A stretch of DNA of 64,000 bases from Pelomyxa schiedti (taxonomy: Eukaryota > Protista > Evosea), in NCBI GenBank assembly GCA_020536535.1, contig JAHLWZ010000807.1, positions 64,001 through 128,000 on the forward strand, given 5' to 3'. Below are positions 18,446-63,998 of this stretch, piece after piece. The stretch's first letter is position 1. The number at the start of each line of letters is the position of its first letter. Both the position numbers and the translations under genes were made by a program. The notes beneath the pieces are model-generated. The model saw nothing but the letters and a program-made list of their open reading frames with translations. It had not been told where the DNA came from and did no database searches.

Positions 18446-20780
18446 TTAAGTACCTTTCATGAGAGCACTGCATATAGCACAAGGAATGTCATTGTCTGTA
18501 GTGGATGGAATGAAGTTGTGTGATTTGTTTTCATTGGTATGGGCTGTGGCTGCTGTAATAGTTGCTGTGTTGCTGTGGGAATGCACGTGGGCGTGGACGT
18601 GGCTGTGGCTGTGAGTGCGGCTGTGACTGTGACTGTGACTATTGCTGCGGTTGCGTGTTGTGCCCTGCAAAAGCACCGAGGATGAAGCGCTTGGTCGTAG
18701 CTTTTGGAACGCTTCGTGAGTTGGGGATGTGTCTTGATCACTGAGAGCTCCGGGATCCATATCCTCGGACTTGGCGCTTGCGGTGGAGTTGCGCCTTCCG
18801 CTTGTTTTTGATCCGCGTTCACTAGAAGATGCATCTTCAGTTGAACGCGGGGTGACTCTTGGTGATTCCCTTTCCATTTCCGGTATGTTCAGCGCTGGAA
18901 TATTTAGTGGAGGGCCACCCTCTTTGTCTCTCCGTTGTTTTCTTTCTTCTCTTGCTTTCTTTCTCTCTTCTCTTGACTTCCTTAGTTCTCCAGTTGGTCG
19001 AAATTCCCCTTCGACGTCTTGGCCTGGGCTTCTGCTCTCAAATGATTCCTGCAGTCCCTCAACTCTCTCTACTTGTCCAGTACTGAGTCTTCTTTCAGAT
19101 CCCCCAATGGCTCTTTCAATTTCTTCTGCTTTTCTTCTAGCATCTTCTAGGCGGTTGTGCTCCCCTGTCATATCTTTGCCTGATGTGGAGAGCGGATTGT
19201 GTATATCCAAAGTTGACTCGTCTTTGTGTTCAGTTTTTATAATGTCAATTTCGTGCTTTGAGTGACTTCGGCTCCTTTTTTCCTTTTTAAGTTCCGGTTC
19301 AGGGGAAGTATCCGGTGTTCCATGAGCCTCGGGAGGGACAAACGCAGGGACAGGATTTAATTCTCGGTCATCACCGTCTTTATGGGTTTCAGTAGCGCAC
19401 GAAGGGTCACTCTTCCTGTCACTGGGTGGAGGTGTTTTCTTCCTCGAGAGTAGTAAAAACGAACCTCCTCCAACGGAAGTTTGGTTCCTAGACTTCGAAC
19501 TACTGAGGCTAGGAGAGCTTTGAGACGGAGTTAACTGGGAGATGTGTGACCGAGAAAGCTTCGGGGATTGGGTCCCAGTCTGTTCTGGCGGGGTATCGGT
19601 GTTCCTGGGGGATAGGGAGGAGCTAGTTGATGGCGGTGGTGCCAGAGAGTTTGAAGGTGGTGCTGCTGGGCCTGATACCGACATACTTTTACTGTGCCCA
19701 TGTCGAAGTGAAAGAAATGTTGCAGCACGACGAACTTGTGATAATGACGAAGGTGATGAAGCAGAGGGTGATGTAGGCGAACTAGAAAGTGATGCATAGC
19801 TAAGACTAGGGGCTGTGAGCCCATTGAGTAATGCTTGGGCCTCAGGACTTAGTGGGAGGGGTTGTTTTACATGCTCACGTGGGGAGGTAGGCGGGGATAT
19901 TCGAAATCGGATGCCGCTATCCTCCTTTACACAAGAAGTAATGTTTTCGGCAGAAGGTGCTCTCCGTCGAGTGGGTGTTTCAACTGCAGCCACTACTGGG
20001 GCGGATTTAACATCCTCTTCTGGAAAAGCTTGTATACTTTATTAGGAGTAAGATAAGGGGAGGGGCTAACGTGGGGGTTCTCCAAAGGCATAGCAGCCAA
20101 TTCCAGATTTGGGATGAACGAATGTATAAAACAAAAGTCTTCTGTATGTCACCAAAAAAGTAACAGTACGGAAAGTGTTACCTTGAAAAATAAAACATCC
20201 TCGTAATAAAATAGCCTTTGAGAGAGATTGTCTTCACGGAAGTAAAGTTCACTGGGTGCCAAATGATAATTGAACCTTCTTGGTCACATGAACACATATA
20301 ACTACGGAGAACAATGTAATAGGCTTCTTTTAATCAGTGGGACTACCTTTCACATGGTGTAAGCCAGGTGATGTCCGCATCATGGCCTACAAGAGTAGCA
20401 ACTATATTCTACAAAGAGTCAATAGGCACTGTAAACAACTCCCTTACTTTTTTATCGCAATCAAACACTAATATCTTTGCTTTACTAGCTGCCCATACAC
20501 GCTTATTAAGATAAATGCATGATGAAAACCGAGCGGCAATATCTGCCAATACTATAGACAAAGAGCAGGGAGGAAGTAAAAATAACCTGTTATCGATCTC
20601 TGAGTAGTCATAGTTAAAGCATCCAGAATAACAACTTTATTCCAACATCCGACCCATACAGTGTCGTCACAGTCACATAAAACCATGAAGTTAATGTTTA
20701 CGGTTTTGTCAAATGTGACACGGTTAACAACTTCACGCGTCTGAGGTACGTTATTTGGCATTCACATGGTTTTGAGATAC
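18446..20780 (-). CDS. WD40-repeat protein with a long Ser/Pro-rich disordered C-terminal exon (1.5 kb single exon 18446..19993)
   Basis: WD-like exons around 20170..20770: …VNRVTFDKTVNINFMVLCDCDDTVWVGCWNKVVILD…; ASKAKILVFDCDKKVRELFTV; TLVGHDADITWL; SCDQEGSIIIWHPVNFTSVKTISLKGYF. A large open exon 19993..18446 is Ser/Pro-rich, with an (HS)n/(SH)n tract near its C-terminus and ending …DNDIPCAICSALMKGT. An acceptor (…cccag) lies just upstream of 19993. The join between the WD exons and the S/P exon is inferred. Confidence 0.4.
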
Positions 20781-26669: not shown

Positions 26670-27339
26670 ATCTTACAAACCATAGTGTTAGGAAGTAATA
26701 GTAGTAAAAAGAAGAAATAAGTACAATAAAAAACAGAAACAACAAAAAAAAACCCCAGGTTGCACAGAAAAAGAATTTGTTCTGGATAAACCTGGGTTGA
26801 TAGTCCCGAAAGCGGAAACGAGTGACCTAACGGTTTCCTTGTCATCCCCGATTATGGTTACAATGATGTCCTCGGGTTTACGGGACTAACCAAGAGGTGT
26901 AAGTGTCAATCAAAATCATTTTGGTTTTTTGTTGTTGTCAAAGGGGAAGAAGGTTAAGGATTGGAGTGGTGTGGGGAAAAAAAAAACCAAAACAATGAAT
27001 AAAAAGTCGTAGTCGTAGAGGCAACACGCGCACCATTTTGTTTCGTGCACTTCGGCGCGTGAAAATTTTGTTTCCTTTATCTGTACTGCGAGTTTCGGGC
27101 CAACCTCTGAACCGCTGAATCTCATTGCTAGATTGAAGATCTTTGTTGGAATGCCAAACACAACGGTGCACAGCAATACGTGAGGGAGTGGGAATGTTGT
27201 TTTCAGAGTCTTGGATGAGAAAGTGACACAACTTCAAGGTCGTTAATTTGGCTTTCGAGTAAGAGCAATTCCCGGTCGATCAAACCGGCACACAAAACGA
27301 AAACACCAGCTTTTTTTTCCGCCCTCGCGATCAACGCTC
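26670..27339. promoter_or_regulatory. Divergent (bidirectional) promoter region between the minus-strand LRR-kinase gene and the plus-strand RCC1-Sec7-PH gene
   Basis: A 670-bp non-coding spacer between two head-to-head gene starts. It contains poly-A/poly-T tracts and no long ORF. Confidence 0.4.
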
Positions 27340-30300
27340 ATGAGCAGCGACCAGGCTAGCGAATCTACGCCAAAAAGCGACAGTGAAGATACCGACGAAA
27401 GCAGCGGAAGCAGGACCGCAAGTAGATCTCATTCGCCAGCCTGTACTGTAACTGGCAGATCTGACGCTGTTCCGTTGGCCACTGAAAACGACGAAGATGT
27501 GCCTTGTACCGCCGTAGTCACTACTGCGGCAATTGCTACCGTAACGGTGATCGCGACTACTCCCGACCCGGAAGTGCTTACTCCAAAAGAACCGGTCGCC
27601 GTGGTGCCTGAAACACAAGAGCCAGTTCCCTCTGAAAGTACTGTTCAAAAGGAAGCTGAGAGCCCAACACAGAAAACAACCGACAACCACACGAGATCAC
27701 ACAGGCACCGGGCGTCACACACGGGACATCACAGGGAGCGAGAAACAAAAGAAGCTGAAACTAAAGATGGAGAGAAGGATGGAAACGGTGACCACTCCAA
27801 GGATCATGACACAAAACATCATAGGGACCATGACAGACACCACGGCGAGTCGCACAGTCGACGAAGAAACAGGAGATACAGTGGAGGTGGTGATGCCGAA
27901 AAGCCTCGTGCATGTCAGTCTCCTCCCGTACCTTTAGATGCCACACTGGTCGCGCATCAAACGAGGTCTAGAGCATCAACTTATGCTGGTGAAGATTTAG
28001 CAGCGGAACTGCAGATGATTGCAACCTCGGGATCTTCTCTAAAAGATGGCAATGAGCCAATAGAGCAAGTAGATGGCTCACATCTGGCAACATTAGATGT
28101 GGATGTAAATGCGAGCTCATCAACGGCTGCATCCACTGCTCCCACTTCTAGCGCAGCGGAGAATTTGCCAGATCCCACTGACAAAACTTCAGTCATTCCT
28201 CAAATCAACGTCACCTCAGAGCCGCTGGCATCCACTGATAGCAACTCAAGCTCACTTTCGTCATTGTCAACTGCCGCCGCTCCTTCCACTGGTGGATCCA
28301 GTACAAAGCCAACTTTGCAAGGTTTTCTTTTTTCCTTCTCGCAATACAAATCCCAACTGCTAGAAAAACAGGTACCGGGCTTTCTCTCCCACGCAGTGCA
28401 AATCAAGGATTTCTCCTTAGCTATTTTGGGAAGTCTGAACCGGGTGCTCATAACATTGATATAGAAAATGTTGTGCAAATTGCAGCTCACGCTACTAGGG
28501 CCGCCGTGAGTTTATTGAGTGCCCCTTCTTTATAACTTACTCTACTACTACCAAAACGTAAGGTTTTACTCCTCAGTGATGGAACCGTAGTATGTCTTCC
28601 TAATGGTCCCCCAGCTTGTGAAATCGGTAAAAACCAAAGCCGATTTCTTGTCAATATTCCTGCGCCGGAACCGATAACTCAAATTGCCTGCTCCACAGCT
28701 TATGTGTGTGCAATTGGAGCCAGTGGGAAGTTATACTTTTGTGAAGACTTGATGGCTCCCGCACCTGCCTTTTCATTCATCAATTTAACTGACGTAGTGG
28801 AAGTTCACGTTGGAAGTTATGGGCTGTTCGCTGCTGCGCTTCAGCAAGATGGGACGTTGTGGACTTGGGGTGCAGATCCACCTCCCCTTGGGGCGCCAAC
28901 TCCAAAGCGAGTGGAAGTGTTTTACCCTGCTGTCTCGAAATCAAAAGTAGATCCCCCACCTCCCCAAGAACAAGTTATCTTCAAGACTTTCGATTGTGGA
29001 GACAAGCATATAGCAGCTGTATCGGACAAAGGCGATGTCTGGATATGGGGAAGCAATCCTCACTCATGTTTGATAAAAGAGTGTCAGGATCCAATTATAT
29101 CCACTCCCCAGCTAGCACTTGACAAGCACAAGATTGCCCACATCTCATGTGGTCGTAATGTAACGTTTGCTTCCGGAGAAGATGGTAAAATCTGGTTCTG
29201 GGGTGATCCAGGCAATCACATTCTCCATCCACTACTTGCAAATGCAGGCTATCTAGGGTACCAGAAGCCTGTTGTACTAGGCTACCTTCCAGGTGGTGTG
29301 CGGATAAGCTGCGGAGTTAACCATTATGCTGCACTTAGTGAAACCGGGGATTTGTGGACATGGGGAAGCAGTGACCGAGCGCAATTAGGCTACATAACAC
29401 AAGCCGTTGTCACGGATTCTTTCGTTCAGGACAATCCACCGCAGTGTGTGGCCATACAAGTGAAACAAGTAGTTTGTGGTAGTTCATATACACTCATGCT
29501 TAGATACCCTCTAAAGCATTCCATGGACGTTTTAAGTGCTGTTACATTTGCAGCACATATGAGATCATCCTCTAATCTTAAGGATAGTCGGAGATCCGCC
29601 CCACCCATTCTGAATTCTTTAGTACAACCCACAACAACGTCGACACTGTCTCTCGCAGTGTCGCAGCTCGCTTCAACCTGTGCCCTGGCCACAACCCTCC
29701 ATATTAAGTCCACCACCACACCAGTCAATAATGCCCCCATGTCTGAGGAAGTGATATCCCTCTTTAAAACATCGCCATCCAAGGCAATCAAAAAGTTACT
29801 GGAACTGGGACTAATCACGAATGCTCCTCGGACACTTGCAACCTACCTCTTCAGTAACTGCGACCTTCTTTCTCCATCATCACTTGCCGATTTTCTCGGA
29901 TCGGAAGGCAGTGAACAAGTCTTGTCTGAATTCACTAATCTCATCAACCTCAGCCATTTGAATTTTGAAATGGCTCTCAGACGATTTATGTGGATCGCGC
30001 ATTTGCCTGGCGAGGCTCAGAAAATCGATAGGATGATGTCCTGTTTTGCAAGACATTACCTGGAAGTCGCAAGCGAAACTGGAATGTTCAAGAATAGCGA
30101 CGCTATATACATTCTTGCAGTAACGTTCCATTATCCCCCGCTGTTGAATTGTCAGTCCACTAACCCTTGCATACTTACTCTTTGACAGTTTTCCTGTATA
30201 ATGCTGACGACGTCTTTCACAAAACAACAATGCGGGTATCCACCTCCCACAATGGACAAATGGATAAGCGGAAATAACGATACCGAAGCAGCCGGTCTTC

Positions 30301-30711
30301 CAAGGTAGCGAGCCCTTTTCAATAACTCTCAGGATTGAACTGAACTTTCCAAGGGACTTCCAAGAGCACCTCTACAACCAAATAGCGGACACCCCATTCG
30401 ATGCCGGCACTCCCTCCAGCAAATTCCTAGTGATGCAAGGGATTCTGTCCCAGCCTCAGCGAGTCTTCCTCAAGACCACGTCCTGCCACCTCAACCACAA
30501 CAACTTCTACCAAGGAGACACCAAAATACCACTCTCCACCATCATAGCCATCAAGCAAGCCGGGGCCACATTCACCATCAAGCTTGCCGACGGCAAGGAT
30601 AGGGTGTTTGAGGCCAAGACAGTTTACACCGCCAACACCTGGATCAACGCCTTCCGCACCGTTTGCTCCAAAACAACTGCGATTACCACCCTCCCAGCCT
30701 CAGGCCCTTGA
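27340..30711 (+). CDS. ARF guanine-nucleotide exchange factor with unusual architecture: disordered N-terminus, RCC1-like beta-propeller repeats, Sec7 domain, C-terminal PH domain
   Basis: The N-terminal ORF 27340..28330 is acidic, Ser/Thr-rich and His-rich. RCC1 repeats (about 28560..29560): DGTVVCLPNG, GKLYFCEDL, DGTLWTWG, GDVWIWGSN, DGKIWFWGD, GDLWTWGSSDRAQLG, VVCGSSYTLML. Sec7 (about 29880..30330): EFTNLINLSHLNFEMALRRFMWIAHLPGEAQKIDRMMSCFARHY…SDAIYILA|FSCIMLTTSFTKQQ…GLPR|IELNFPRDFQEHLYNQI (FRLPGEAQKIDR motif). Sec7 splices: a 69-nt intron at 30120..30188 and a 28-nt intron at 30305..30332. PH domain exon 30333..30711: FLVMQGILSQPQRVFLKTTSCHLNHNNFYQGDTKIPLSTIIAIKQAGATFTIKLADGKDRVFEAKTVYTANTWINAFRTV. 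Stop TGA at 30709..30711. Confidence 0.8.
30305..30332 (+). other. Putative 28-nt GT-AG micro-intron (gtagcgagcccttttcaataactctcag) inside the Sec7 domain
   Basis: Without it the Sec7 domain ends at an in-frame TAG before its conserved DLPxEyL..LY..I segment, and the PH exon has no start. Splicing gives …AAGLPR|IELNFPRDFQEHLYNQI. Confidence 0.5.
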
Positions 30712-30977
30712 CCTCACATTCACTTCATACCATGCCCATACTGTACCCTTTAAGTTTTTTTTTATTTTTCAACTCGTTTCTGTTCCTGTGGTGCAGGGGA
30801 AAATGCTAAGAACTTCATTACACCACGCCACACATTTTTTTTTGTGGCAAACAATTTCCAACTTGGTTCTCAACATGTCATTTGGGTAAACGAGCTTGCC
30901 CCAAATTTCCGGCAACAAAAAGGCCAGCGATCGAAAAGTAATCAGAAAAAGAAAAAAAAAAACCGTAAAACACAAAG

Positions 30978-32805
30978 ATGATAGGGTCGACAGCCGTATT
31001 ACCAAGTGAGCATTGTGTTTGTTGAATGGTTTTTGTTATTAATTTTGTGGTTGGGTAGTTCCTGCTACATCCGGAATTGCGAGCGGGGCGAGTTACGCAG
31101 ATGCTGTAAATGCACTGGAACAACTGGACAAGATTGTGGACTCTCTGTTTGGTCACCTCTCACAAAAGGTTACCGAACAGAGCAACAGGCTTGGCTCGGC
31201 TGCTTCCAGGATAATATCCATGAAGGTCCCTTTTTCACCCTTTGATTTTATTTTTTTTTTTTGCTCAATTGGTTGTTGTGGTTGTTCTTTTTGACGCTGT
31301 TATTGTATGCATTGAGATAAACTTACATGTCTTCGTTTCAGAATAGAATCACTCGTTTGTCGGAAGAAAAGGATCGCGCTGTTGTTGTACGCTCGCCTGC
31401 AACACACCCGAATCCTCACCCTGAGGGGTTATTGCCTTCACTGTTCTCTGGCTATGTCCCACCACCTGTGACGCGCTGTGCGAAATTTCCTCACAGGCAG
31501 CAGGTTATTGTAAGTTGTCCTTCTAAAAAAGCCAATGCACTTACATGAGGTTTAGGTAGATAGAATAGACGAGGATCCCATTACCTCCAGTCAACGTATT
31601 GCCCCTCTTTTGTATGAAATTCAGCAGGCAGCCATTGGTGCTCCAGTATCGGATGGCCTTGGTATTTTCTTCTCTTCTCTTCATTTCTTTCCTAATTTCC
31701 CGAAATTAGGCGCCGTCAGTGAGGCAACTACCTCGATCTCCAGCCTGGTGCTGTTCAACTCTTCTATTACGCCAAATACAAACAACGCCTCCTGTGACAA
31801 CTTGCGTACGAGATTCTCCAAAGAGGTTCGCCCTATGCTAAAAGTACCAACTCCTCAAATTCCTCCTGCCCCATCCAGTTTGTTGACTGAAATGGTATGA
31901 ATCTTTGTGTTTTCGGTTAACTGACATGAATCCAGAAAGAATTCCACTCCCGGTATATCGTGGAATTACCACCAGCTGAAAAAGCCCCCAAATTGTTATT
32001 ACCAGACATGCTAGGCCTCACCAATGCCGCTAAAGTTTGTGATTTTGGAGAAGGTATGTCTCATCCTGAGGCGTGGACAACTTGTTCATCCAAAAATCCA
32101 GATGAGGATGCCTCTGAGGATTCCCAAGTCCAAATTCCTCCTCCTGAGGAAGCTCTCCCAGTTCCCAATAAACCAACTGTTACCCCACAACCAGCAACAT
32201 ATACTGAAAAGGTAGTGATTCCACCACCTGTGGCAACGAAGGCAACTTTACCTGTCCCACCAGCTGTTCCTCAGCCCCAACCAACACCAGGTTTCAAGGC
32301 AACCCCCCCACAGAAGCAAATCCCGCCCCCTACAGCCACGCCCCCGCAGAGCACCCCCTCCCGCCTTGTCCCACCTCTCGCTCCTTTCTCCGCCGCGCCC
32401 GCCAGTTCCGCCGCGGCCACTGCAGGCCCTCGCCCTTTGGCCTCCGCCTCGGGGCCCACCGGCACTGCCGCTTATGTGATTCCTGCAGCCCCTCCACCTC
32501 CCAAGAAGTGGCCCCTGTCTCGTGAACTCCTGCAGCCTGCCGCTGCACCCCCACAAAGCTTCCAGCAGCAGTTGGCAGACAAAATAGCACTGAGGCAACA
32601 CCACAAGGATGTAGCCCCCCCTCTGGAATCGCCCCCATCACAGCAACAGCAACGCCAACGGCAGCAGCAGCAGCAACAACAGGAGCAACAAACAGTGAAG
32701 GCTCCCCCTTCAATGACAGGCACCTGGGCCCAAATATCTGCCAAAATCATCCCCCGCAGAGAAGCCGTTGCTGATTCTGATGACGAGCAGGACGACGATT
32801 TCTAA
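30978..32805 (+). CDS. WASH1: WASH complex subunit 1 (WASH1/WASHC1) homologue: WAHD1 N-terminal domain, Pro-rich region, C-terminal WH2-like + acidic tail
   Basis: Exon 1 (30978..31005): MIGSTAVLP. Exon 2 (31058..31224): IPATSGIASGASYADAVNALEQLDKIVDSLFGHLSQKVTEQSNRLGSAASRIISMK. Exon 3 (31342..31509): NRITRLSEEKDRAVVVRSPATHPNPHPEGLLPSLFSG…. Later exons: …SEATTSISSLVLFNSSITPN…; KEFHSRYIVELPPAEKAPKLLLPDMLGLTNAAKV. Final exon 31960..32805 is Pro-rich and ends …QQLADKIALRQ…ADSDDEQDDDF. Segment-by-segment resemblance to human WASH1: [75 protein letters not shown]. Confidence 0.8.
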
Positions 32806-35269: not shown

Positions 35270-36301
35270 TCTATTGTCGGCCGCCCACGCCATACGCAAG
35301 CCATGCCCGGACCGTGCAACCAGGACGCCTACTTTGGGGACGAGGCCCAGAGCAAGAGAGGCGTCCTGACCCTCATGTACCCAATCGAGCACGGCGTCGT
35401 CACCAACTGGGACGACATGGAGAGGATATGGCACCACACCTTCTACAACGAGCTCTGCGTTGCTCCCGCGGACCACCCTGTCCTGCTCACAGAGGCCCCA
35501 CTCAACCCAAAGGCCAACCGCGAGAAGATGGCCCAGCTCATGTTCGAGACATTCAAAACACCCGCCATGTACGTGGCCATCCAGGCGGTCCTGTCCCTCT
35601 ATGCCTCTGGTAGAACCACTGGCATTGTGATGGACACTGGCGATGGTGTCACCCACACGGTACCTATCTACGAGGGCTACGCCCTGCCACACGCCACCCT
35701 CAGGCTCGATATTGCCGGCCGCGACCTCACTGACTACATGATGAAGATTCTCACTGAGCGCGGCTACTCGTTCACCACAACCGCTGAGCGCGAGATTGCG
35801 GGTGATATCAAGGAGAAGCTCGCATATGTTGCCCTGGACTTTGATGCCGAGATGAAGACAGCAGCTGAATCCTCGTCCCTTGAGAGGAGCTACGAGCTCC
35901 CAGATGGACAAGTGATCACGATAGGAAACGAGAGGTTCAGGTGCCCAGAGGCCCTGTTCCAGCCGCCATTCCTCGGCATGGAAGCCGCGGGAATCCACGA
36001 GACATGCTACAACTCCATCATGAAGTGCGACGTCGATATCCGCAAGGACCTGTACGCCAACATTGTTCTATCTGGTGGCACATCAATGTTCCCAGGGATT
36101 GCTGACAGGATGCAGAAGGAAATGACCACCCTAGCACCAACAACAGTGAAGGTTATGGTCATCGCACCACCTGAGCGCAAGTACTCCGTGTGGATAGGAG
36201 GATCTATCCTCGCCTCGCTAAGCACATTCCAGCAAATGTGGATCAGCAAGGAAGAGTACGACGAGTACGGACCTGCCATTGTCCACCGCAAGTGCTTTTA
36301 A
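35270..36301 (+). CDS. ACT: Actin, exon 2 (divergent N-terminal segment …[18 protein letters not shown]…, otherwise canonical)
   Basis: [15 protein letters not shown]…[73 protein letters not shown]…[77 protein letters not shown]. Stop TAA at 36299..36301. Confidence 0.95.
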
Positions 36302-47240: not shown

Positions 47241-48796
47241 TTGGTGATGACTTTCTGGAAGGAGAAGGGGAGTGGGACTCCCTTCTTTCAGATCTTGAAG
47301 AAGCGTTTCGTTCAGATCTCGAAGAAGAGTGTGGAACTGGGTGCGTTCTTTCCGGGGCAGATGTCTACACACAAGTTAAATTAATGGTTAGTAGCAGGTG
47401 AATAACTTTCAGAGAAGGGGGAGACTCTCGAAGGGATGTGCCTGTGACTGGTGCCGATGCTGTCAATGAACCCTGCTCGATACTGGGGGAGGGGGTACTC
47501 TCTCCTGAAGATTGAAGAGATTTGCTTGGAGGTAAGCAATCTACGGGACCAGTATTTTCGTGAAAAGGTGGGCTATGGCCACAATTCTGGCAGAGTCCAC
47601 CTACAGGAAGGTGTCTGGGCCATAAAAATTGCACAAAAACAAGTACCATAATTGGTCCCATAGTATTGATCACATTCACAATTTTCTGTTGTACACGCAC
47701 CTCGTTTGATGGAACCCACACCAGTTGTATCTTGATTTGTTGGGAAATGAGTTAGTAATGGGCGTTATACCTGGTGAGATTATGAGAATTTTCTGTGTTT
47801 TTGCAAGATGGATTCTAGTACGAGGAGACACATCCTAAATTGAAAAAAAGAATTAACAACCATTTTGGAGTGAACAAGCAACTACAGCAAAATCGGAATT
47901 GCCTGACTCTGGCAGTGCCACTCTATCATTTTATTAGGTTTTCTTTCTCCCAGTTTGGGTACCTTTCTTCAGTAAAAGAATTGTGTTGTTCACCACTTGT
48001 AACTAAACTGTACAACGTTGAGAGTTATTTCCCTTGTCGGCTCTATACCTTTGTGATGCATCTTCGACTGAAGAAGGTCCATTTCCATACTCTGCCTAGG
48101 TGAGAGGATTATATTTTGAGTACAATCTTGAGAGCCATTAGTACCTGAGGAGTAAAAACGGGATATGCCTGGAAAAAACTATTTAGACTTTCAGTATCCA
48201 TGATTTCGAGAGCCAAAACAAAGCTTTTCTGAGTACAATTGAAAAAGAAAAAATGGAGGAGAGAAAGTACCACAGCAACATTCACATTTTCTTGGTTTTC
48301 TAGAACTTTCTGCCTCAGTGGCAAGGACAGCTGGTTTTCATAACGGTAGTATACCTCTTCAAGTGCATGTGGACAGTAACGACTGTACTCGTTGCTTGCC
48401 GTATGGGAATTGGGGGTGAAGGGAGCTTCAATTGTGGTGTTTGTCGAACTTGCAGGGGGAATTGAAGTGGGGTTGCAGGAGGGATTGCATGTGTGAGAAG
48501 CTAATGCTGAAGCACATTCATGTGCAAAAGATGCATCACATACAGCGTCAAGATGTGGTTCACGCTTTTCAATGTGATATCGTAGACATGGCCAGGCATA
48601 TTTATCACAAAGAAGGATCAACAGAGTATCATATTGAATAGTAGGTGCTGAAGTCACGGCAGTTTGTAAAATCAACGGAGGGGGTGATTCACAAGGGCTG
48701 TCTGGGATATCTGAAGATGAGCGTTGCCTTGTTCGGTCCTTTCTTCCAAAAAGTTTCTGGAAAAATCCTGTAGTGGCACAAAGTTAGACCACCCCA

Positions 48797-50140
48797 TTAC
48801 CCAAAGGTACAAGTCACACCTGGGGATGGTGTTACAGCAGAACAAGAGGATGAATATTTCCTTGTTTTAGGTGGCGATGAAGGTGCTGCAATCGCCTGCT
48901 GTGATGTCGGCGGTGTAACAAGCACTGTAGCTGGCAGCACTTGAGCCTGGGGAATAGGAGGAGGGATTGGTGGGTTCTGAGTCGCGGGAGGGAGGAACAT
49001 GTACGAAATCAACGGAGATGCCGCCGGGGATAGCTGTGGTGACACCAGCGGGGATTGAGAAGGCGAAGCACTGCACGAGGAAGAGCCTCCCTCGCCCTTC
49101 AGCTGCCACTGATGATTCTGACTGTGATTCGGAGCCTGGAACATGTTAGAACTGCCCCCACGCGCGGGAGAGCAAGAGGAGGATTGGTTCTGCAGAAACG
49201 GAGGAGGCGGTGGGATTGCACTATGGTGCGAGTGCGACGATGGCGGCGGCATGGAGCTAGATGACGCCCCCGTCCTATGGTGAGGCTGCTGTTGTTGGTG
49301 GTGCTGTAGCCTGAGTGGCATGTGTTGGTTATATTGATTCGTACTTGTAGTAGTAGTAGTATTAGTAGTAGTAGTACTAGTGGGGTTTGTATTTGCATTT
49401 GTATTTGCATGGTTCTGGTTGTGCAGTTTGTGCCCAGACTGTGAACGTGGGACACCCCCACCATTGCCATTACCATTACCACTACCACTACCACTACCAC
49501 TTCCATTGGTGTTGTTGTAGTTGGAGGAGCGGGACGGCGAGGGCGAAGGGTGCAGCACAGAAGGGCAGTCCGTGACGTAGTGGGGGTAAGGGGGGGGCGG
49601 GATCCCCTGGTGCAGGGCGCCCGAGTGCGAGGGCGGCGAGGGAGGCGGCAGGGGCGCCGGGGACATGGGGGGCGACAGGGAGCCCGGGGCGCCCAGCACC
49701 GAGTCGTCGCTGCTGCTGGTGCGGATGCGGTACAGGCGCGGGGGCGCCGCGGGGGGCCCGGCCGACGGCGGGAGCGGGAGCAGCGGGCCCGAGGCGTAGG
49801 TGGCCACGGTGCCCAGCGCCACCCCGCCGTAGTAGCTGCCGCTGCCGCTGCCGCCGCCGGGCTGAAGAGGCGGCGCAGGAGGCGGCGGAATGGGGGGCAG
49901 CCCCGAGAACATCTGCGGGGCCGACGTGGACAGCGGCGCCTTGCGTATGGGGAACGGCGGCGGCGTGGTGCTGTTGGGCCACGGCGTGTCCGTGTTCCGC
50001 GGGGAAACCAGGGCGGCGGTTGGCGGGGCAGGGGGAGGAGGCGGGGGGATGTGGTAGTGTGTCAGCGGGGATATTGCCTGCTGCAGCGGCGGGGGGGGCG
50101 GCGGCCCGTCCGGCCAGCTGCTTCCTTTGTTCCCGTGCAT
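48797..50140 (-). CDS. Pro/Ser/Gly/Asn-rich low-complexity coding exon (probable N-terminal region of the kinase gene above) overlapping an extreme GC island
   Basis: An open frame of about 1.4 kb encoding PPPPPP, GSGSGSGNGNGNGGG, TTTTNTTTTT and HHQQQQPHH tracts. The 49500..50160 segment is about 75% GC and is open in several frames on both strands, so strand and frame are assigned only by continuity with the kinase gene. Confidence 0.35.
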   Translation of the reverse strand: MHGNKGSSWPDGPPPPPPLQQAISPLTHYHIPPPPPPAPPTAALVSPRNTDTPWPNSTTPPPFPIRKAPLSTSAPQMFSGLPPIPPPPAPPLQPGGGSGSGSYYGGVALGTVATYASGPLLPLPPSAGPPAAPPRLYRIRTSSSDDSVLGAPGSLSPPMSPAPLPPPSPPSHSGALHQGIPPPPYPHYVTDCPSVLHPSPSPSRSSNYNNTNGSGSGSGSGNGNGNGGGVPRSQSGHKLHNQNHANTNANTNPTSTTTTNTTTTTSTNQYNQHMPLRLQHHQQQQPHHRTGASSSSMPPPSSHSHHSAIPPPPPFLQNQSSSCSPARGGSSNMFQAPNHSQNHQWQLKGEGGSSSCSASPSQSPLVSPQLSPAASPLISYMFLPPATQNPPIPPPIPQAQVLPATVLVTPPTSQQAIAAPSSPPKTRKYSSSCSAVTPSPGVTCTFG

Positions 50141-50540
50141 CAAGCGGTGTTCGTGCTGGGGTGAGCGCGCGCGTTTGATCACGAAACAAACCAAAAAAAA
50201 AGAGGGGAAAAAAAACGGGCTGGGGAAGACGTTTGATTGATCAATGGCTTCACTTCCATGTTTGAACCGAGCGAACATTTCGTAGATGAAAGTTTCAGGG
50301 AGGCTTGGTCACTTGCGTTACCAGAATTACCTCACGTAGGTGTTCCTACCTCCGTGGTGGTGAACAAATGAAAGGTATGAGCGTGCAGAGTCGAGCACTT
50401 GCTGGTTTGTAAGTATTGCTGCCCCGGGTTCACTGTAGAGAGAGGGAAATATAAGGTGACGGTGTGATGCTGAATGTGTGTCGTTTTGCGTTGTGGTTTG
50501 TTTGCTTACCTTTCGGGTGTGTATTGGGGGTAGTGCAGTG

Positions 50541-57555: not shown

Positions 57556-60500
57556 GTGCTAAGTTCCCATGCCGCAGAAATTACCACATTTCCCAAATCA
57601 CAATTCCGTGTACTGTTTTCCAAACAAAACAACGCAACAACAAAAACCCCAAACGAGCCTCCAGGGCAAATGTCATCATCCTCGTCACCCTCTTCCTCGT
57701 CGTCATCGTCCTCACAAGAACACCATCATCACACACGGCATACTGGTAAACACAGAAACCACGAGCACCACAGCCGTCACGATCACAAACACAACGAAAT
57801 AGCACCAGAGAACAACCGGGAGAACTCTTCTTCTAGAAGCAGGCACGAAAAGGACGAAGAGCAGGGGAGTAAAACCACCACAGACATCATGATTGCTGAC
57901 GAACAGAGCGCTAAATCTGCTGACGGGAATGAGACTGAGAACCCATCTCAGTCTTCAGTCTCTGTGGAGGGGACTGAAAAGCTGCCGTGGAGTATGAGAC
58001 TGAAGAAGTTTTTCTATGGGGTTTTCAGAGAGGCCCTGTTGGCAAAGCTTCTGGCTGCCCTGCTTGCCAAATTGGGCAGATTCAATTCCAGGCACCCTTT
58101 TTTGGTGATTGGAATAGGTTCCACTATCGCTATAGGGCTTGCCTTTGGATTATTTGCCGCTGAGGTAGAAAGCAGGCCTGTGGCTCTATGGGTTCCGGCT
58201 CACATCAGGAGCAATGAGGAAAGAAAGTTCTATGATAAAACATTCAGCCCATTTTTCCGCATTGAGCAGATTATTACTACTGCCCCTGCGGAGGGTGATA
58301 ATGCCCTAGAGACGGACACACTACTGGAAATGCTCGAGCTAGAAAACCTCGTTTATAATATAAGTGTAATGCACCAGGGCAGAAGTTACACACTGAATGA
58401 CATATGCTATCGGCCTACTTCTTTTGCCCCATGTGTGGCCCAGACAGTGCTGGACTATTGGTATGATAAGCCAACACAGAAGCACAGTGCTCAGAAAATT
58501 GAAGATGATACCGACCTGTTTTACACCGTGGCCCACGCTGCAAAGACTCCGCTTGGGAACCCAATAATGAGAGACAATGTTGTGTCACCGATTCTTAATG
58601 ATATCAACCCCACATTAAAACCTTGCTTTCTGACAACTTACCTGGTGCGGAACACTGATGAGCTAAGGGGGGCAGCGGAAACCTGGGAGAGGGAGTGGCT
58701 GAAAGTGTTGGAAGCGAAACAACCACTACTGAACCGATCAAGCATCTGGTATGCCGCAGAGGTGCGAATATCCCCACTTTATCATCCAAATATCCCATAG
58801 AAATATAAAGAAATTGATTCCCAAATAACGGAGTAAATCACTGAGTTCATGGAGAAAAGGTTTCAATTCAAGACGAACTGAAAAAAGAGATCTCTGCCGA
58901 TTCATATGTCATTGCATCTAGCTATATAATTATGTTTATTTACGTTGGGATCACGCTTGGCAAATTGAATCCAGTTCACTCCAAATTCATAATTGGATTT
59001 GCAGGAGTCTTTATAATCGTTATAGCAATTGTTTCAGCGTTTGGTTTTTCGTCTCTCATCAGCATACCTTTTTCTCCAATAAGGTTTGAATGAACTTTCA
59101 TCGTAATGTTTGTTTGACCTGTTAATGCAGTGCCCAAGTTGTACCTTTTCTTGTACTAGCTACAGGAATTGATGACATGTTCATAATTGTGAATGGCTAT
59201 CATGAACTGGAGGAAAATGAGCGGGCTGCAGAAGAAGGTACTATTTAGCATAATTAATATTTGAAATTAATTGCCTTTCAAGGGGAGAATGAAAGTGAAG
59301 AGGAAAAAGCCGAAAGGGCGAGAAAAGAAAGGAAACGACTCAAATCAATGTCCTCAAAAGAGTTGTGGGCAGTTGTGGAAGAGAAAATGGGAAGAACTCT
59401 TGCCCATATTGGTCCCAGCCTCACATTATCACAAGGCTCCAATTTTATTGGAATGATGGTTGGCAGGTTTGTAAATATCCAAAACCTTCAATGATAACAA
59501 GGCTAGTGTTACAGGAATGCCCGCCATGAATATGTTTTGCTGGCAAGCTGGCTTTGCCGTCATTATGGTACTATTTCTTGAGTTGACTGTATTCTGTAGT
59601 TTTGTAGCTCTGGACGCTTTCAGAGAGTTGGTTGATACCCTTTATCCTCTATCCTTCATGACAGTATTCAGTCTTACCGTGTGGACCTTTTGTGCTGCAT
59701 CAAACTTGACCCTGAAAAATATGAAAGCAAGAGTGTGGCTTGTGATTGCAAGTGCAAAAAATGGCTGCAAATGGGAATAGTTCGCAAGTTTATCTCGGAC
59801 TACTTGACACCTTTTATCCTTCATAAATATTTCCGCTGGGGAGTTGTAAGTAAACCTCGTTCCTCGTAGTTTTGGCCTTTGAACCTTTTTATCAGATTGG
59901 AGTCTTTTTAGCTTTATTTGGTGTAAGCATCTGGGGTACTACGACAGCTGAAATGGGCCTTGGCGTGAACGACGTCATGCCTAGGGGCTCCTATGTTGTC
60001 CCTTTCAATGACCATCGTGAGGATTACTTTGGACACCTCGGTTGATATTCCGAGTATTGGCATTTTGTGACCGTTTCTAGGTCCCCCTGTGTATCTTGTT
60101 TTTGGAGAGCATGCCTACGAAACAAACGAAATTCAAGATGAAATAACTTCCTTGGAGGATAGTCTTGCTGCCAGTGAATATACGCAAGATAAAATACTTT
60201 CTTGGTTAGATGACTACATGTATGTAATGCTAACTTGTTACCTTGAATAATGTGCATCAAGAGTCTGGTGCGTATCCATGCACGGGAAAAACATGACTAT
60301 TGACCCCATTAACCCCACTAAACGGCGTATACCTCCTGCCGATTTTCTGCCTTGGCTTCATGACTTTCTCAGTGATAATGTGACCACAATGTCGCCCCTT
60401 GGTCTTAATATCCTTCTTTCTCCTTCATATCTTAGTAACAGTTAAAATAGGTCCTTCTCATAAAGAGGATATTACATTCGACCCAGTAACTGGGAATATT

Positions 60501-61564: not shown

Positions 61565-63998
61565 TTAAGGGTTACTACTTCCAGTTTTACAGACGAGAGC
61601 AAGAACTTCCGCAACAGTTTCCATTATGCTGCTGTTTTTTATTGCTGTTGGGAATTGTTCAAGGAGTGCAGCCAGAACATCAGAACCCTCTTTGACCAAC
61701 AAAGGGTGTTCACTTCGGGCAAGGAACAGTGCACTGTCAATTGCACCACCTCCCACATTGACAAGGTTGTCAATAAGTTCGGCGTGGACTGTTCCTGGTT
61801 GCATTAGAACGCCCAGAATCTTCACCATAATGCGGCAGGATTCGAACTGAACCCTGATGTCACGTGGCTTTTTGCTTGTTGCGGGGGTGCTGGTTGTGGA
61901 TTCCGCTCTAGGTGAAGATGTAGAGGAAGATGTGGTTGTGGATGTGGATGTAGTTGTGGATGTAGCTGTTGTTGCCTCGTCTTCTGGTTTGTTGTCTTCC
62001 TGTTCCGGCTCTACAATACCACGCTCGCCTCTGGTAAGAGTTGTGAGGGACTGTAGAAATGCAGCTTGACACAACTCCAGAGATACTACTAAGCTAATGG
62101 AGGGATCAGACAGCAGCATACGTAGAACTCCGATGGCGTTAAAAAGAACAACGGGGTTTGATCCTTGCTCCACAACAGCACATATAGCCGGAACTATGTT
62201 CTTGTTTGCAGTTGACGAGTCGGTGGTGGGTGGGCACAAAGTTGTGCGGCATGCTGGCACGGTTAAGATATTGTGGACTATATGCAAGACACGAAGTTGA
62301 AGAGGCTGGTTGGTTACATGATTGAGCAAAATATCAATAATTGCTTCCCAAGCTCGGCCTTGTATTATTTTTGTGCAATATGTATTATCTTCACAAGCCG
62401 AGAGGGCGTGAAGAACAGTCGCACAGTGCGTAGGAATTTCGCGGTCAGCTACATGTAACGCATCACATAGTAACTGCCCCACCTCCTCAAGCCTTGAGGC
62501 GAATTGCGCACAGACAACGGAGTTCTCTACAGCAGTTGTATAGGCCTTAAATAGTGCGGCATCCATCCTTGTTGCACGGGGGGGAAGTGGTGCTCTGCCG
62601 GCTTTAGGTGGAGGGGGTGGAGGGAAGCTCCACTGGCGCTTCGCCATAGCACCACCTATTAGTGCTTGGGAATGCACTAATGCTGCACCAACACCACCAG
62701 CAAATGCACTTCGCAACAGCCTATCATCAGCGATTTTTGCTAGAAGCTCAGCTGCCAAAACAAACGGTGACATCTCGTCATCGAAAGGTAGCCATGTGCA
62801 TGGCTCACCATCATCGTTTTCACCTGCTGGTTGTTCTCCTTCATCTATCGCACGTGTTGAAACATCTGGTGAAGTATAGACAACTTCACTGAGTAACTCG
62901 ATACCACCTGCCTCTTTGAGTGCCACCCGTGCATCATGAGAGGTGCATAACTGTGTGAGTAATTCCATTACTTCTTTTCGAGCATCAATGGTGGACTTGG
63001 AGGCCGGGGAGAGAGATTTCAGTAACGGCGGAATAGCCCCAAGTTGAATAGTTTGAGAGGAACAGTCAGTGTGGTCAGCCAGATTGAACAGTGCGTGAGC
63101 TGCCATAGCCGAGACGGTTAGGTCGTCAGAACTTAATAGATGTATGAGAGCTGGGATGACTCCACATGTTGCTGTGATGAGTAAGAAGTTGTGATAAAAT
63201 GGGTTTGACAAACCAAGGGCAGATTGTAGTGTACTAGAAGTGGACCCCATGTTAGCTACACAACACGCAACTGTACGCTGCAATTGCCTATCTTCCACCA
63301 AAAGTAACTCAGGAAGCCAAAAGTAGAGTGTTGGAGGAGCATTTGGGCTCGCTTGTGCCACGGTACTTGTGAAAGTTACAGTTGGAATAGGCGACTCCCC
63401 GAATATAGCACTTGCGCCATGGAGGATTTGTTGCCGGTTATCTTCATTGTCAAAGCACAAGTTGGTTAGGCCACGAGCCACTTGTAACTGTGCAGCTCTC
63501 ACCACAGTGAGGTCCTGTGGGTGCAGTCGATGATATTCCATTACTCTCACCAACAATTTAGCAAGTTTGATCATAGCTCCGTGCTTTCCCAGAGGGTCTC
63601 TAGGTCCATCTTGTCTGTTAAAAAAAACCCTATTAAAAAAGGACCTCCGGAACTCAGCACAACAACGTCATAGGATACTTCTTTACACCATGATAATAAT
63701 ATAATAATTTTAATTAATAATGAAAAAGGGAAAAAAACAACCTACAAATGTCAGCAACAAGTTTGGCGGCCATCTTGGGCGCCTCGAACAAGGGACCGTC
63801 CAGAGCGCCGAGGATTTCATCGCAATTATGGGCCAGCTCGTCACGCGCCAGCGCCGCATCACATTCTTCGTCACACGCAGCCGCTATAAGCGACGCCAAT
63901 TGTTCCAATCGCGAGAACGTCGGAGTACAAGCTGCAGCCGACGACATAACGAAGGTCGCGTCGAGATACCTTTCGTAGAAACGCAAAAAAAAAAACAA
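61565..63998 (-). CDS. Armadillo (ARM)-repeat protein, 2 or more exons. The N-terminal exon reaches about 63950 and may continue past the window end.
   Basis: A 669-codon exon 61565..63574 with repeated ARM-like units (…LGAIPPLLKSLSPAS…, …ALKEAGGIELLSEVV…, …ATCGVIPALIHLLSSDD…, GSNPVVLFNAIGVLRMLLSDPS…). Upstream exon: …DRQDGPRDPLGKHGAMIKLAKLL…. A further exon 63714..63998 begins MSSAAACTPTFSRLEQLASLIAAACDEE…. Confidence 0.7.

What the first reader, a model, noticed from the sequence alone, without database searches (positions are those of the whole stretch)
27340..30711. RCC1 beta-propeller fused to a Sec7-PH (cytohesin-like) ARF-GEF module
Cytohesin-type ARF-GEFs are normally coiled-coil + Sec7 + PH. 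Here a full set of RCC1-like repeats sits N-terminal to Sec7-PH in one reading frame, preceded by about 330 residues of acidic/His-rich disorder. The RCC1 signatures are WTWG, WIWG, WFWG and CG..YT. The Sec7 signature is FRLPGEAQKIDR-like (HLPGEAQKIDRMM). The PH domain closes the protein. RCC1 propellers are usually Ran/Rab GEFs or chromatin or lipid binders, so this architecture could couple two GTPase systems or target ARF activation to a specific membrane. I do not recognise this arrangement as a described family.
Basis: partly seen in the sequence, partly recalled or inferred. Interest (0 to 1): 0.55.

Follow-up and report, generated by a model that had tools for sequence, protein, structure and literature searches.

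The report
RCC1-propeller ARF-GEF of Pelomyxa
This is a real, transcribed gene of the anaerobic amoeba Pelomyxa schiedti that joins a seven-bladed RCC1-type propeller to a cytohesin-like ARF activator (Sec7 plus a stripped-down PH domain); this domain combination is conserved in a few related amoebae, is filed in GenBank only as "cytohesin-like", and I found no paper describing it.

Summary
Window 27340-30711 (+) is one five-exon gene with four GT-AG introns of 49-69 nt. It encodes 1048 aa and is identical to GenBank KAH3757191.1 of Pelomyxa schiedti, which is auto-named "pleckstrin homology, Sec7 and coiled-coil domains 1".

Architecture:
- about 335 aa of Ser/Thr/Asp/Glu/His-rich disorder;
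- a seven-bladed RCC1-like propeller (Pfam RCC1 and RCC1_2 above cutoff; the AF2 model's best PDB match is human RCC1);
- an S/T-rich linker;
- a Sec7 domain (Pfam 1.3e-40, closest to cytohesins, catalytic Glu intact);
- a short, divergent PH-like domain that fails the Pfam cutoff but has PH topology and aligns with Grp1 Sec7-PH.

One exon carries blades 2-7 plus two-thirds of Sec7. An intron-less RNA contig spans blades 5-7 through the 3' UTR. The two-transcript objection is therefore refuted.

The architecture recurs in a P. schiedti paralog (39% identity) and in an unidentified ENA assembly (46%). A sister lineage carries a WD40 propeller in place of RCC1. The main survey of Sec7 families does not list it.

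Best reading: a lineage-restricted, cytohesin-derived ARF-GEF whose propeller serves targeting or regulation. This is inferred, not shown. It is a new variant of a known kind, of moderate interest.

The parts
27340..30711 (+). Complete CDS of the RLD-Sec7-PH gene. Exons are 27340-28321, 28372-28505, 28563-30119, 30189-30304 and 30354-30711. It encodes 1048 aa, with stop TGA at 30709-30711.
   Evidence: The splice model was built. Its translation is identical to P0172 = GenBank KAH3757191.1 of Pelomyxa schiedti.
27340..28406 (+). N-terminal low-complexity, disordered region, aa 1-339. It is rich in Ser, Thr, Asp, Glu and His and carries His/Arg patches (HTRSHRHRASHTGHHRERE; HHRDHDRHHGESHSRRRNRR). 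It contains intron 1.
   Evidence: No Pfam hit. The same kind of His/Arg-rich IDR precedes the propeller in P0001 and in L001, where it lies in the same exon as the first RCC1 strand.
28322..28371 (+). Intron 1, 50 nt, GTTTTC...AAACAG.
   Evidence: Chosen over the alternative 28372-28433 because it restores GFLLSYFGKSEPGAH, which matches GVLFFFGKSRPGAH in the paralog. It gives the GenBank protein exactly.
28407..29510 (+). RCC1-like domain, aa about 340-688: a seven-bladed beta-propeller. It contains intron 2 at 28506-28562. The blade motifs are YFGKSEPG, CLPNGPPACEIG, LYFCEDL, WTWGAD, WIWGSN, WFWGDPGN and WTWGSSDRAQLG.
   Evidence: Pfam RCC1_2 1.2e-19, RCC1 1.4e-10 and WD40_RLD 9e-38. The AF2 model has pLDDT 75, pTM 0.80 and 28 strands. 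Foldseek top hits are human RCC1 1a12 (E 3.2e-19, TM 0.67) and HERC2 RLD1 (TM 0.68/0.73).
29511..29741 (+). Ser/Thr-rich linker between the propeller and Sec7, aa about 689-765.
   Evidence: It lies inside the uninterrupted exon 28563-30119. It is covered contiguously by RNA contig L002. No + strand AATAAA occurs between 27003 and 32167.
29742..30396 (+). Sec7 (ARF-GEF catalytic) domain, aa 766-944. It is interrupted by introns 3 (30120-30188) and 4 (30305-30353).
   Evidence: Pfam Sec7 1.3e-40. The best PDB sequence hits are cytohesin-1, -2 and -3 at 1.9e-28. The AF2 Sec7 superposes on ARNO, cytohesin-1 and BIG1 at rmsd 1.8-2.0 Å. Both introns are absent from RNA contig L002.
30012..30014 (+). 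Codon GAG for the catalytic 'glutamic finger' (E856) in HLPGEAQKIDR.
   Evidence: It aligns with the E of FRLPGEAQKIDR of cytohesin-1. It is invariant in all family members.
30421..30672 (+). Short, divergent PH-like domain, aa about 953-1036. It has 7 beta-strands and a C-terminal helix containing the conserved Trp (TANTWINAFR). It lacks the beta5-beta6 hairpin and the cytohesin basic PIP motif.
   Evidence: Pfam PH scores only E 0.055. hhalign against cytohesin PH gives probability 64%, E 6.7e-5 over 79 columns. MAFFT puts it in register with the FFNP linker, the beta1 strand and the C-terminal helix Trp. Foldseek finds Grp1 Sec7-PH 2r09 at E 5.7e-15 over 311 columns, against about 184 columns and E about 6e-11 for Sec7-only entries.
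29056..30748 (+). Genomic span matched by the spliced RNA contig L002 (Logan SRR23919877_24886, 1575 nt). It covers the end of RCC1 blade 4, blades 5-7, the linker, Sec7, the PH-like domain, the stop codon and 37 nt of 3' UTR.
   Evidence: blastn is 100% identical over 29056-30119 and 30347-30748. The middle piece is 98.4% with 2 gap openings at the blastn piece ends, and both introns are missing. The contig encodes aa 538-1048 in one frame at 100% identity.

Best explanation
The locus is one bona fide protein-coding gene of Pelomyxa schiedti (Archamoebae, Amoebozoa). It encodes a lineage-restricted, cytohesin-derived ARF guanine-nucleotide exchange factor.

Shown:
- One gene and one transcript encode IDR, then a seven-bladed RCC1-like propeller, then an S/T linker, then Sec7, then a short PH-like domain.
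- Sec7 is cytohesin-type and keeps the glutamic finger and both Sec7 signature motifs.
- The whole architecture is conserved at 39-46% identity in a paralog and in a second organism.

Inferred:
- The Sec7 domain is the catalytic part and activates ARF-family GTPases by the standard Glu-finger mechanism.
- The propeller takes the place of the cytohesin coiled coil. It works as a protein- or membrane-interaction platform that decides where or when the GEF acts, not as a second exchange factor.
- The PH-like domain has lost the Arg that is essential for PIP3/PIP2 binding in cytohesins, and it has also lost the C-terminal polybasic autoinhibitory helix. It is therefore unlikely to work as a phosphoinositide sensor. 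It more likely serves as a structural or regulatory partner of Sec7.
- Membrane affinity may instead come from the His/Arg-rich N-terminal region. This last point is speculative.
For: Gene and transcript:
- The model is identical to KAH3757191.1.
- A single 519-codon exon spans the RCC1-Sec7 junction.
- The intron-less RNA contig L002 covers 29056-30748.

Domains:
- PDB sequence hits are to cytohesins at 1.9e-28, with FRLPGEAQKIDR~HLPGEAQKIDR aligned.
- The AF2 Sec7-PH model has pLDDT 85. Its best match is Grp1 Sec7-PH across both domains.
- The AF2 propeller has 28 strands. Its best matches are RCC1, HERC2 RLD and RPGR.

Conservation:
- Paralog P0001: 39% identity, 97% coverage, E 5.6e-155.
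- L001 ortholog: 46% identity, with introns at the same three positions.

Loss of the PIP motif:
- In the alignment the Grp1 R284 position is T, L or V in the three RLD members. The beta5-6 hairpin and the polybasic tail are absent.

Precedent for swapping the N-terminal module:
- Amoebozoan ARCC is Ank-Sec7-PH (PMC6727740).
- The WD40-Sec7-PH-like sister proteins are P0110 and L003.
Against: - There is no biochemical or localisation data for any member.
- RCC1-like domains can themselves act on GTPases. Examples are RCC1 on Ran, and HERC1 RLD1 as a GDP-release factor for ARF (PMC6692442). The assignment 'platform, not catalyst' is therefore only a prior.
- In the window copy the second Sec7 motif is somewhat degraded: IMLTTSFTKQQ against IMLNTSLHNP in the relatives. 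GEF activity of this particular paralog is not guaranteed.
- The PH call rests on weak sequence signals and on an AF2 model whose alignment contained cytohesins. That biases the model towards the PH fold.
- Transcript evidence does not reach exons 1-2. The junction between the IDR and the propeller rests on the GenBank model, on homology, and on the single-exon arrangement in L001.
Confidence: 0.68

Rival explanations
1. Dual-GTPase device. The RCC1-like propeller is itself a GEF, GDP-release factor or effector-type binder for a second small GTPase (Ran, Rab, Arl or ARF). The protein would then couple two GTPase cycles, or form a feed-forward cascade onto ARF.
For: The propeller is complete and strongly conserved among the three members, including a family-specific loop WGDPGNHI.HP..A..G(Y/F)(L/M)G(Y/F). 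HERC1 RLDs bind ARF1 and release GDP from ARFs (PMC6692442). Plant RLD proteins act genetically in the GNOM ARF-GEF pathway and were proposed as Rab-E GEFs (PMC6941992).
Against: Most RLDs outside RCC1 itself are interaction platforms (my own knowledge of RPGR, HERC2, UVR8, Nek9 and alsin). No specific similarity to RCC1/Prp20 orthologs was seen: identities are 14-21% and equal to those with other RLDs. In sister proteins the same Sec7-PH lineage carries a non-GEF WD40 propeller at that position. That suggests a generic scaffold role.
Confidence: 0.17
2. Annotation or assembly artefact. Two neighbouring genes, an RCC1 protein and a cytohesin, have been merged by read-through of an ORF or by the gene predictor.
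For: The database also holds a 365-aa product (P0023) that starts at an internal Met in the last blade and covers only the linker, Sec7 and PH.
Against: P0023 is only the Met-to-stop ORF called on RNA contig L002. The 440 nt upstream of that Met continue in frame, with no stop, through RCC1 blades 5-7. A single 1557-nt exon spans both domains. The same fusion, with the same intron positions, exists in two other loci, one of them in another organism. No + strand AATAAA occurs inside the gene.
Confidence: 0.02
3. Catalytically weakened or pseudo-GEF. This paralog keeps the Sec7 fold but acts mainly as an ARF-binding scaffold, while the other paralog (KAH3767991.1) carries the GEF function.
For: In the window copy Sec7 motif 2 reads IMLTTSFTKQQCGYPPP. 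The paralog, L001 and P0110 keep IML(N)TS(L/R)HNP. The PH-like domain is also most degraded in this copy.
Against: The glutamic finger and the whole motif-1 helix (LNFEMALRRFMWIAHLPGEAQKIDRMM) are intact. Sec7 scores 139 bits end to end over profile positions 5-182 of 183. The gene is expressed and spliced.
Confidence: 0.1

Closest known systems
Cytohesins (cytohesin-1, ARNO, Grp1): coiled-coil + Sec7 + PH + polybasic tail
   Same: The Sec7 domain is most similar to cytohesins by sequence (1.9e-28) and by structure. A PH-type domain follows directly after a related FFNP-like linker. GenBank already names the protein after cytohesin-1.
   Different: No N-terminal coiled coil was seen; instead there is a 335-aa IDR plus a seven-bladed RCC1-like propeller. 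The PH is about 30 residues shorter, lacks the beta5-6 hairpin, lacks the R284-type PIP-binding Arg and lacks the C-terminal autoinhibitory or polybasic helix.
ARCC (ankyrin-repeat-containing cytohesins) of Amoebozoa, alveolates and haptophytes (PMC6727740)
   Same: The evolutionary logic is the same: a cytohesin-derived Sec7-PH core that acquired an N-terminal repeat-domain interaction module in a protist lineage.
   Different: The module here is an RCC1 beta-propeller, not Ank repeats, and there is no Ank hit in Pfam. Distribution so far is only P. schiedti and one unidentified ENA assembly.
WD40-Sec7-PH-like proteins of Mastigella eilhardi (P0110) and ENA ERZ21831265 (L003)
   Same: They carry the closest non-RLD Sec7-PH module, at 37% identity over Sec7-PH. 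They share the family motifs LNFEMALRR, FSC.ML.TS, MQGIL and F.AKT.(Y/F)T..W.
   Different: They have a coiled coil and a WD40 propeller in place of the RCC1 propeller. Their PH-like domain keeps an Arg at the Grp1 R284 position.
HERC1 (p619): RLD-containing giant E3 ligase
   Same: It links an RCC1-like propeller functionally to ARF. RLD2 binds ARF1 and clathrin, and RLD1 releases GDP from ARFs in the presence of PI(4,5)P2 (PMC6692442).
   Different: It has no Sec7 domain, so any action on ARF is through the RLD itself. Its remaining architecture is unrelated (SPRY, WD40, HECT).
Alsin/ALS2 and plant RLD/PRAF proteins
   Same: An RLD is combined in one polypeptide with GEF and/or PH modules that act in membrane traffic. 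Alsin has RLD + DH-PH + VPS9 (my own knowledge). Plant RLDs have PH + RLD + FYVE + BRX and act in the GNOM ARF-GEF pathway (PMC6941992).
   Different: Neither contains Sec7. In plants the ARF-GEF link is genetic and acts in trans, not as a fusion.

Membership tests
Sec7-domain ARF-GEF superfamily | Sec7 domain matched end to end above the curated threshold | tested here: met
   PF01369 scores 139.4 bits against a cutoff of 22, covering profile positions 5-182 of 183. AF2 and Foldseek give rmsd 1.8-2.0 Å to the ARNO, cytohesin-1 and BIG1 Sec7 domains.
Sec7-domain ARF-GEF superfamily | Catalytic glutamic finger in the FRLPGE motif | tested here: met
   HLPGEAQKIDR has E856 (codon 30012-30014) aligned to the cytohesin-1 Glu. 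The residue is invariant in the family.
Sec7-domain ARF-GEF superfamily | Nucleotide-exchange activity on an ARF GTPase | not testable with these tools
   This needs a biochemical assay.
Cytohesin subfamily | Sec7 most similar to cytohesin Sec7 (reciprocal-best-hit type criterion used in PMC6727740) | tested here: met
   The top PDB sequence hits are cytohesin-1, -2 and -3, ahead of BIG, Sec7p, RalF, IQSEC and GBF. The top non-family database hits are metazoan cytohesins.
Cytohesin subfamily | PH domain immediately C-terminal to Sec7 | tested here: inconclusive
   It is below the Pfam threshold (E 0.055). Supporting evidence is hhalign probability 64% and E 6.7e-5, AF2 topology of 7 strands plus a helix and a Foldseek alignment to Grp1 Sec7-PH over 311 columns. 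The AF2 alignment contained cytohesins, which biases the model.
Cytohesin subfamily | N-terminal coiled-coil dimerisation or adaptor domain | tested here: not met
   The sequence upstream of Sec7 is an S/T-rich linker, an RCC1 propeller and a low-complexity IDR. No coiled-coil-like segment was seen. A dedicated coiled-coil predictor was not run.
Cytohesin subfamily | Phosphoinositide-binding basic signature (Grp1 K273/R284 etc.) and a C-terminal polybasic or autoinhibitory helix | tested here: not met
   In the MAFFT alignment the K273 position is Q, R or V and the R284 position is T, L or V in the three RLD members. The tail after the PH helix is short and non-basic. This is alignment-based, so moderately uncertain.
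RCC1 superfamily (RCC1-like domain proteins) | RCC1 repeats above the curated threshold that form a seven-bladed propeller | tested here: met
   RCC1_2 scores 69.9 bits against 22 and RCC1 scores 42.1 against 21.7. There are seven WG-type blade motifs. The AF2 model has 28 strands. The best Foldseek matches are full-length RCC1, HERC2 RLD1-3 and RPGR, at TM 0.62-0.73.
RCC1 superfamily (RCC1-like domain proteins) | Orthology to RCC1/Prp20 (Ran GEF) or Ran-GEF activity | not tested
   Only generic RLD similarity was seen: 14-21% identity to all solved RLDs. No phylogeny was built, and activity is not testable here.
ARCC (Ank-Sec7-PH) | N-terminal ankyrin repeats | tested here: not met
   There is no Ank family hit at E <= 1 in Pfam.

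The most novel reading that the evidence does not exclude
Pelomyxid Archamoebae may possess a previously unrecognised ARF-GEF subfamily, which could be called 'propeller-cytohesins'. In it, interchangeable beta-propellers (RCC1-like or WD40) replace the coiled coil in front of a Sec7 plus mini-PH core. In the RCC1 version the propeller would bind or exchange a second small GTPase, so that one polypeptide wires two GTPase switches into a cascade onto ARF.
Probability: 0.15. Interest if true: 0.6.

Novelty: new variant of a known kind. Interest (0 to 1): 0.36.

Why it matters
ARF-GEF subfamilies are defined by what is attached to the Sec7 domain, because the attachments decide where and when ARF is switched on. 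The standard survey recognises GBF1, BIG, cytohesin, EFA6, IQSEC, FBX8, TBS and ARCC. An RCC1-propeller version is not among them.

This locus, together with its paralog, an ortholog in a second organism and WD40-bearing sister proteins, shows another independent re-tooling of the cytohesin core in Amoebozoa. It offers a natural test of whether RCC1-like propellers talk to the ARF system, which has so far been suggested only for HERC1 and for plant RLDs.

The practical consequence is modest. The GenBank name ("...coiled-coil domains 1") is misleading and hides the architecture.

Tried and rejected
- **Alternative intron 1 (28372-28433, model A).** Rejected. It deletes the conserved GFLLSYFGK strand and does not give the GenBank protein.
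- **Exact look-up of the spliced protein.** The look-up of P0001 found no record.
- **Bacterial-type promoter and terminator scan of 27000-31200.** Counts equal the shuffled expectation, and the scan is irrelevant for a eukaryote.
- **AATAAA scan.** No + strand site lies inside the gene. This is weak evidence, because the poly(A) signal usage of Pelomyxa is unknown.
- **Neighbouring ORFs.** I checked them for a small GTPase or any functional link. The adjacent ORFs gave no Pfam hits.
- **Synteny between the window and L001.** Only the gene itself matches.
- **A bacterial origin for the propeller.** Bacterial RCC1-repeat proteins top the hit list. Their scores are sums over many repeats, and their per-domain scores equal those of eukaryotic RLDs. 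No HGT claim is made.
- **Other RLD+Sec7 proteins.** Among the 150 best hits of the exhaustive search of 1.84 billion representatives, only family members carry both domains. A weakly similar convergent fusion scoring below about 145 bits would be missed.
- **The word-indexed search with the Sec7-PH profile.** It was clearly incomplete, since it missed P0001 itself. I did not use it to argue absence.
- **Supplementary tables of PMC6727740.** These are not held as text.
Full report
**What is at the locus**

The window is eukaryotic, with about 45% GC and short GT-AG introns. Three-frame translation and splice-site enumeration give a five-exon gene on the + strand. The exons are 27340-28321, 28372-28505, 28563-30119, 30189-30304 and 30354-30711. 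The introns are 50, 57, 69 and 49 nt long. The 1048-aa product is identical, residue for residue, to P0172 = GenBank KAH3757191.1, 'pleckstrin homology, Sec7 and coiled-coil domains 1 [Pelomyxa schiedti]'.

**Checking the observation**

Pfam finds three families above their curated cutoffs:
- Sec7 at 1.3e-40 (aa 766-944);
- RCC1_2 at 1.2e-19;
- RCC1 at 1.4e-10.

It also gives a sub-threshold but long WD40_RLD match at 9e-38.

The critical junction is nevertheless intron-free. Exon 28563-30119 is a single 519-codon ORF containing RCC1 blades 2-7, the S/T-rich linker and the Sec7 catalytic motif HLPGEAQKIDR.

The N-terminal 335 residues are low-complexity (S+T 27%, D+E 15%, H 5%) and have no domain hit.

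**One transcript or two?**

The exhaustive representative search returned a 365-aa protein, P0023, that is 100% identical to the linker-Sec7-PH part. It is the Met-to-stop ORF called on a 1575-nt Logan contig of run SRR23919877, here called L002. That contig:
- matches the window at 100% over 29056-30119 and 30347-30748, with the middle piece at 98.4% and 2 gap openings at the blastn piece ends;
- lacks introns 3 and 4, so it derives from spliced RNA;
- continues in frame through RCC1 blades 5-7 in the 440 nt upstream of the called Met, encoding aa 538-1048 without a stop.

No + strand AATAAA occurs anywhere between 27003 and 32167.

Transcript evidence does not reach exons 1-2. Their linkage rests on three things:
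- the GenBank model;
- the conserved strand GFLLSYFGKSEPGAH, which only the chosen intron 1 restores;
- the ortholog L001, where the disordered N-terminus and the first RCC1 strand lie in one exon.

**Domain anatomy**

*RCC1-like domain.* Seven WG-type blade motifs are present. An AF2 model (pLDDT 75, pTM 0.80) has 28 strands, that is, 7 blades of 4. Its best PDB matches are whole seven-bladed propellers:
- human RCC1 1a12 (E 3.2e-19, TM 0.67);
- HERC2 RLD1 (TM 0.68/0.73);
- RPGR, HERC1 RLD3 and UVR8.

Identities of 14-21% show no special affinity to any one RLD family.

*Sec7.* Its closest solved relatives are cytohesin-1, -2 and -3 at 1.9e-28. BIG, Sec7p, RalF, IQSEC and GBF follow. The glutamic finger and motif 1 are intact. 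Motif 2 is slightly degraded in this copy, IMLTTSFTKQQ against IMLNTSLHNP in the relatives.

*C-terminal domain.* Pfam PH reaches only E 0.055 on the isolated tail. Several other lines support a PH fold:
- MAFFT puts the family in register with cytohesin PH domains from the FFNP-type linker, through beta1 (MQGIL~EGWL), to the Trp of the C-terminal helix.
- hhalign of the family tail against cytohesin PH gives 64% probability and E 6.7e-5 over 79 columns.
- The AF2 model of aa 761-1048 (pLDDT 85, pTM 0.83) shows seven strands followed by a helix at aa 957-1034, with pLDDT 87-93.
- Foldseek ranks Grp1 Sec7-PH (2r09, E 5.7e-15, 311 aligned columns) and BRAG Sec7-PH above all Sec7-only entries, which have about 184 columns and E about 6e-11.

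The AF2 input alignment contained cytohesins, so this is supportive rather than independent evidence.

Relative to cytohesins, the domain lacks the beta5-6 hairpin. The Grp1 R284 position is T, L or V in the three RLD members. There is no polybasic or autoinhibitory C-terminal helix.

**Relatives**

- *A paralog in the same species.* P0001 = KAH3767991.1 (971 aa) aligns over 97% of the core at 39% identity, E 5.6e-155. It has the same order of His/Arg-rich IDR, RLD, Sec7 and PH-like domain.
- *A third member in another organism.* It lies on a 497-kb contig of ENA assembly ERZ21831265 (L001); the organism is not identified. My 1120-aa model is 46% identical to the window core. Its introns are at the same three positions as window introns 2-4 and are only 36-43 nt long. 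Flanking genes show no synteny.
- *A sister lineage.* The Mastigella eilhardi transcript P0110 (1154 aa) and locus L003 of the same ENA assembly share the Sec7-PH-like core at 37% identity, including the family motifs. They carry a coiled coil and a WD40 propeller instead of the RLD.

Among the 150 best hits of the exhaustive search of 1.84 billion representatives, only family members contain both an RLD and a Sec7. Close orthologs therefore appear absent from other sampled organisms. Weakly similar convergent fusions scoring below about 145 bits could have been missed.

**Comparison with what is known**

The reference survey of Sec7 families (PMC6727740) recognises:
- GBF1, BIG and cytohesin as ancestral;
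- EFA6, IQSEC, FBX8, TBS and ARCC as cytohesin-derived, lineage-specific families.

ARCC is Ank-Sec7-PH in Amoebozoa. RCC1 is never mentioned, and Archamoebae do not appear in the main text. No held paper combines Pelomyxa schiedti with Sec7.

The protein passes the Sec7 tests. Its Sec7 is cytohesin-type. It fails the coiled-coil and PIP-motif features of canonical cytohesins and the Ank feature of ARCC. It is best described as a further cytohesin-derived architecture.

Functional links between RLDs and the ARF system have precedents. HERC1 RLD2 binds ARF1 and clathrin, and HERC1 RLD1 releases GDP from ARFs (PMC6692442). Plant RLD proteins act in the GNOM ARF-GEF pathway (PMC6941992).

**Mechanism**

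What is shown:
- one expressed gene with the stated domains and an intact catalytic Glu;
- conservation of the whole arrangement across paralogs and across a second organism.

What is inferred:
- Sec7 activates ARF-family GTPases.
- The propeller replaces the coiled coil as the targeting or regulatory module. The WD40 swap in sister proteins argues for a generic scaffold role.
- The mini-PH is no longer a phosphoinositide sensor.
- The His/Arg-rich IDR might supply membrane or pH-dependent affinity. This is speculative.

Rivals, with my confidence in each:
- a genuine dual-GTPase device in which the RLD acts on or binds a second GTPase (0.17);
- a weakened or pseudo-GEF paralog (0.10);
- a merged-gene artefact (0.02, effectively refuted).

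**Verdict**

It is not categorically new. It is another variation on the cytohesin theme, confined so far to pelomyxid amoebae, and already present, mis-named, in GenBank. Interest is moderate (0.36). It would rise if the propeller proves to engage a second GTPase.

Noticed in passing
P0110 (Mastigella eilhardi, EukProt) and L003:3700-6100 (ENA ERZ21831265 ctg81783l): These are sister proteins with a coiled coil, a WD40 propeller and the same Sec7 plus short PH-like core. Two different beta-propeller types therefore sit in front of one Sec7-PH lineage in pelomyxid Archamoebae.
   Followed up: partly
L001:3417-6896 (ENA ERZ21831265 ctg81923l): This is a third RLD-Sec7-PH member, from an unidentified organism with about 42% GC. 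Its introns are only 36-43 nt long and lie at the same positions as window introns 2-4. One intron shows a CTAAC branch-point-like motif close to the acceptor.
   Followed up: partly
window 27685-27880 (aa about 116-180); also P0001 aa 40-60 and the L001 protein at about aa 300-345: The otherwise unalignable N-terminal disordered regions of all three family members contain His/Arg-rich patches such as HSHTRHHSHERERHKHHHHRRRR. These could be metal-, pH- or membrane-sensitive. No function was tested.
   Followed up: no
window 18446-19993 (-): This is a 515-aa Ser/Pro-rich ORF with no Pfam hit. It ends in an alternating His repeat (HSHSHSRTHSHSHVHAHVHSHS), which echoes the His-rich composition of the GEF N-terminus.
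   Followed up: no
window 48797-50278: This is the most GC-rich stretch of the window (54.5% over 48001-50000, with strong positive GC skew). It has long overlapping ORFs on both strands that encode Pro-, Gly- and Gln-rich low-complexity sequence. It is probably one proline-rich gene with spurious antisense ORFs.
   Followed up: no
window 35303-36301 (+), 57556-58800 (+), 61565-63574 (-): Other recognisable genes in the window are an actin exon (by eye, 332 aa), an NPC1-like protein (PF22314, 1.9e-17) and an armadillo-repeat protein (PF00514, 1.7e-11). None has an evident functional link to the GEF.
   Followed up: partly
whole window: AATAAA occurs 75 times on both strands, against 51 ± 6.7 expected from shuffles. 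None lies on the + strand inside the GEF gene.
   Followed up: no
database behaviour: The word-indexed protein search missed the identical GenBank protein. That protein is clustered under a 365-aa fragment representative. In the Sec7-PH profile search the tool also missed P0001. Absences from that tool should not be read as true absences.
   Followed up: yes
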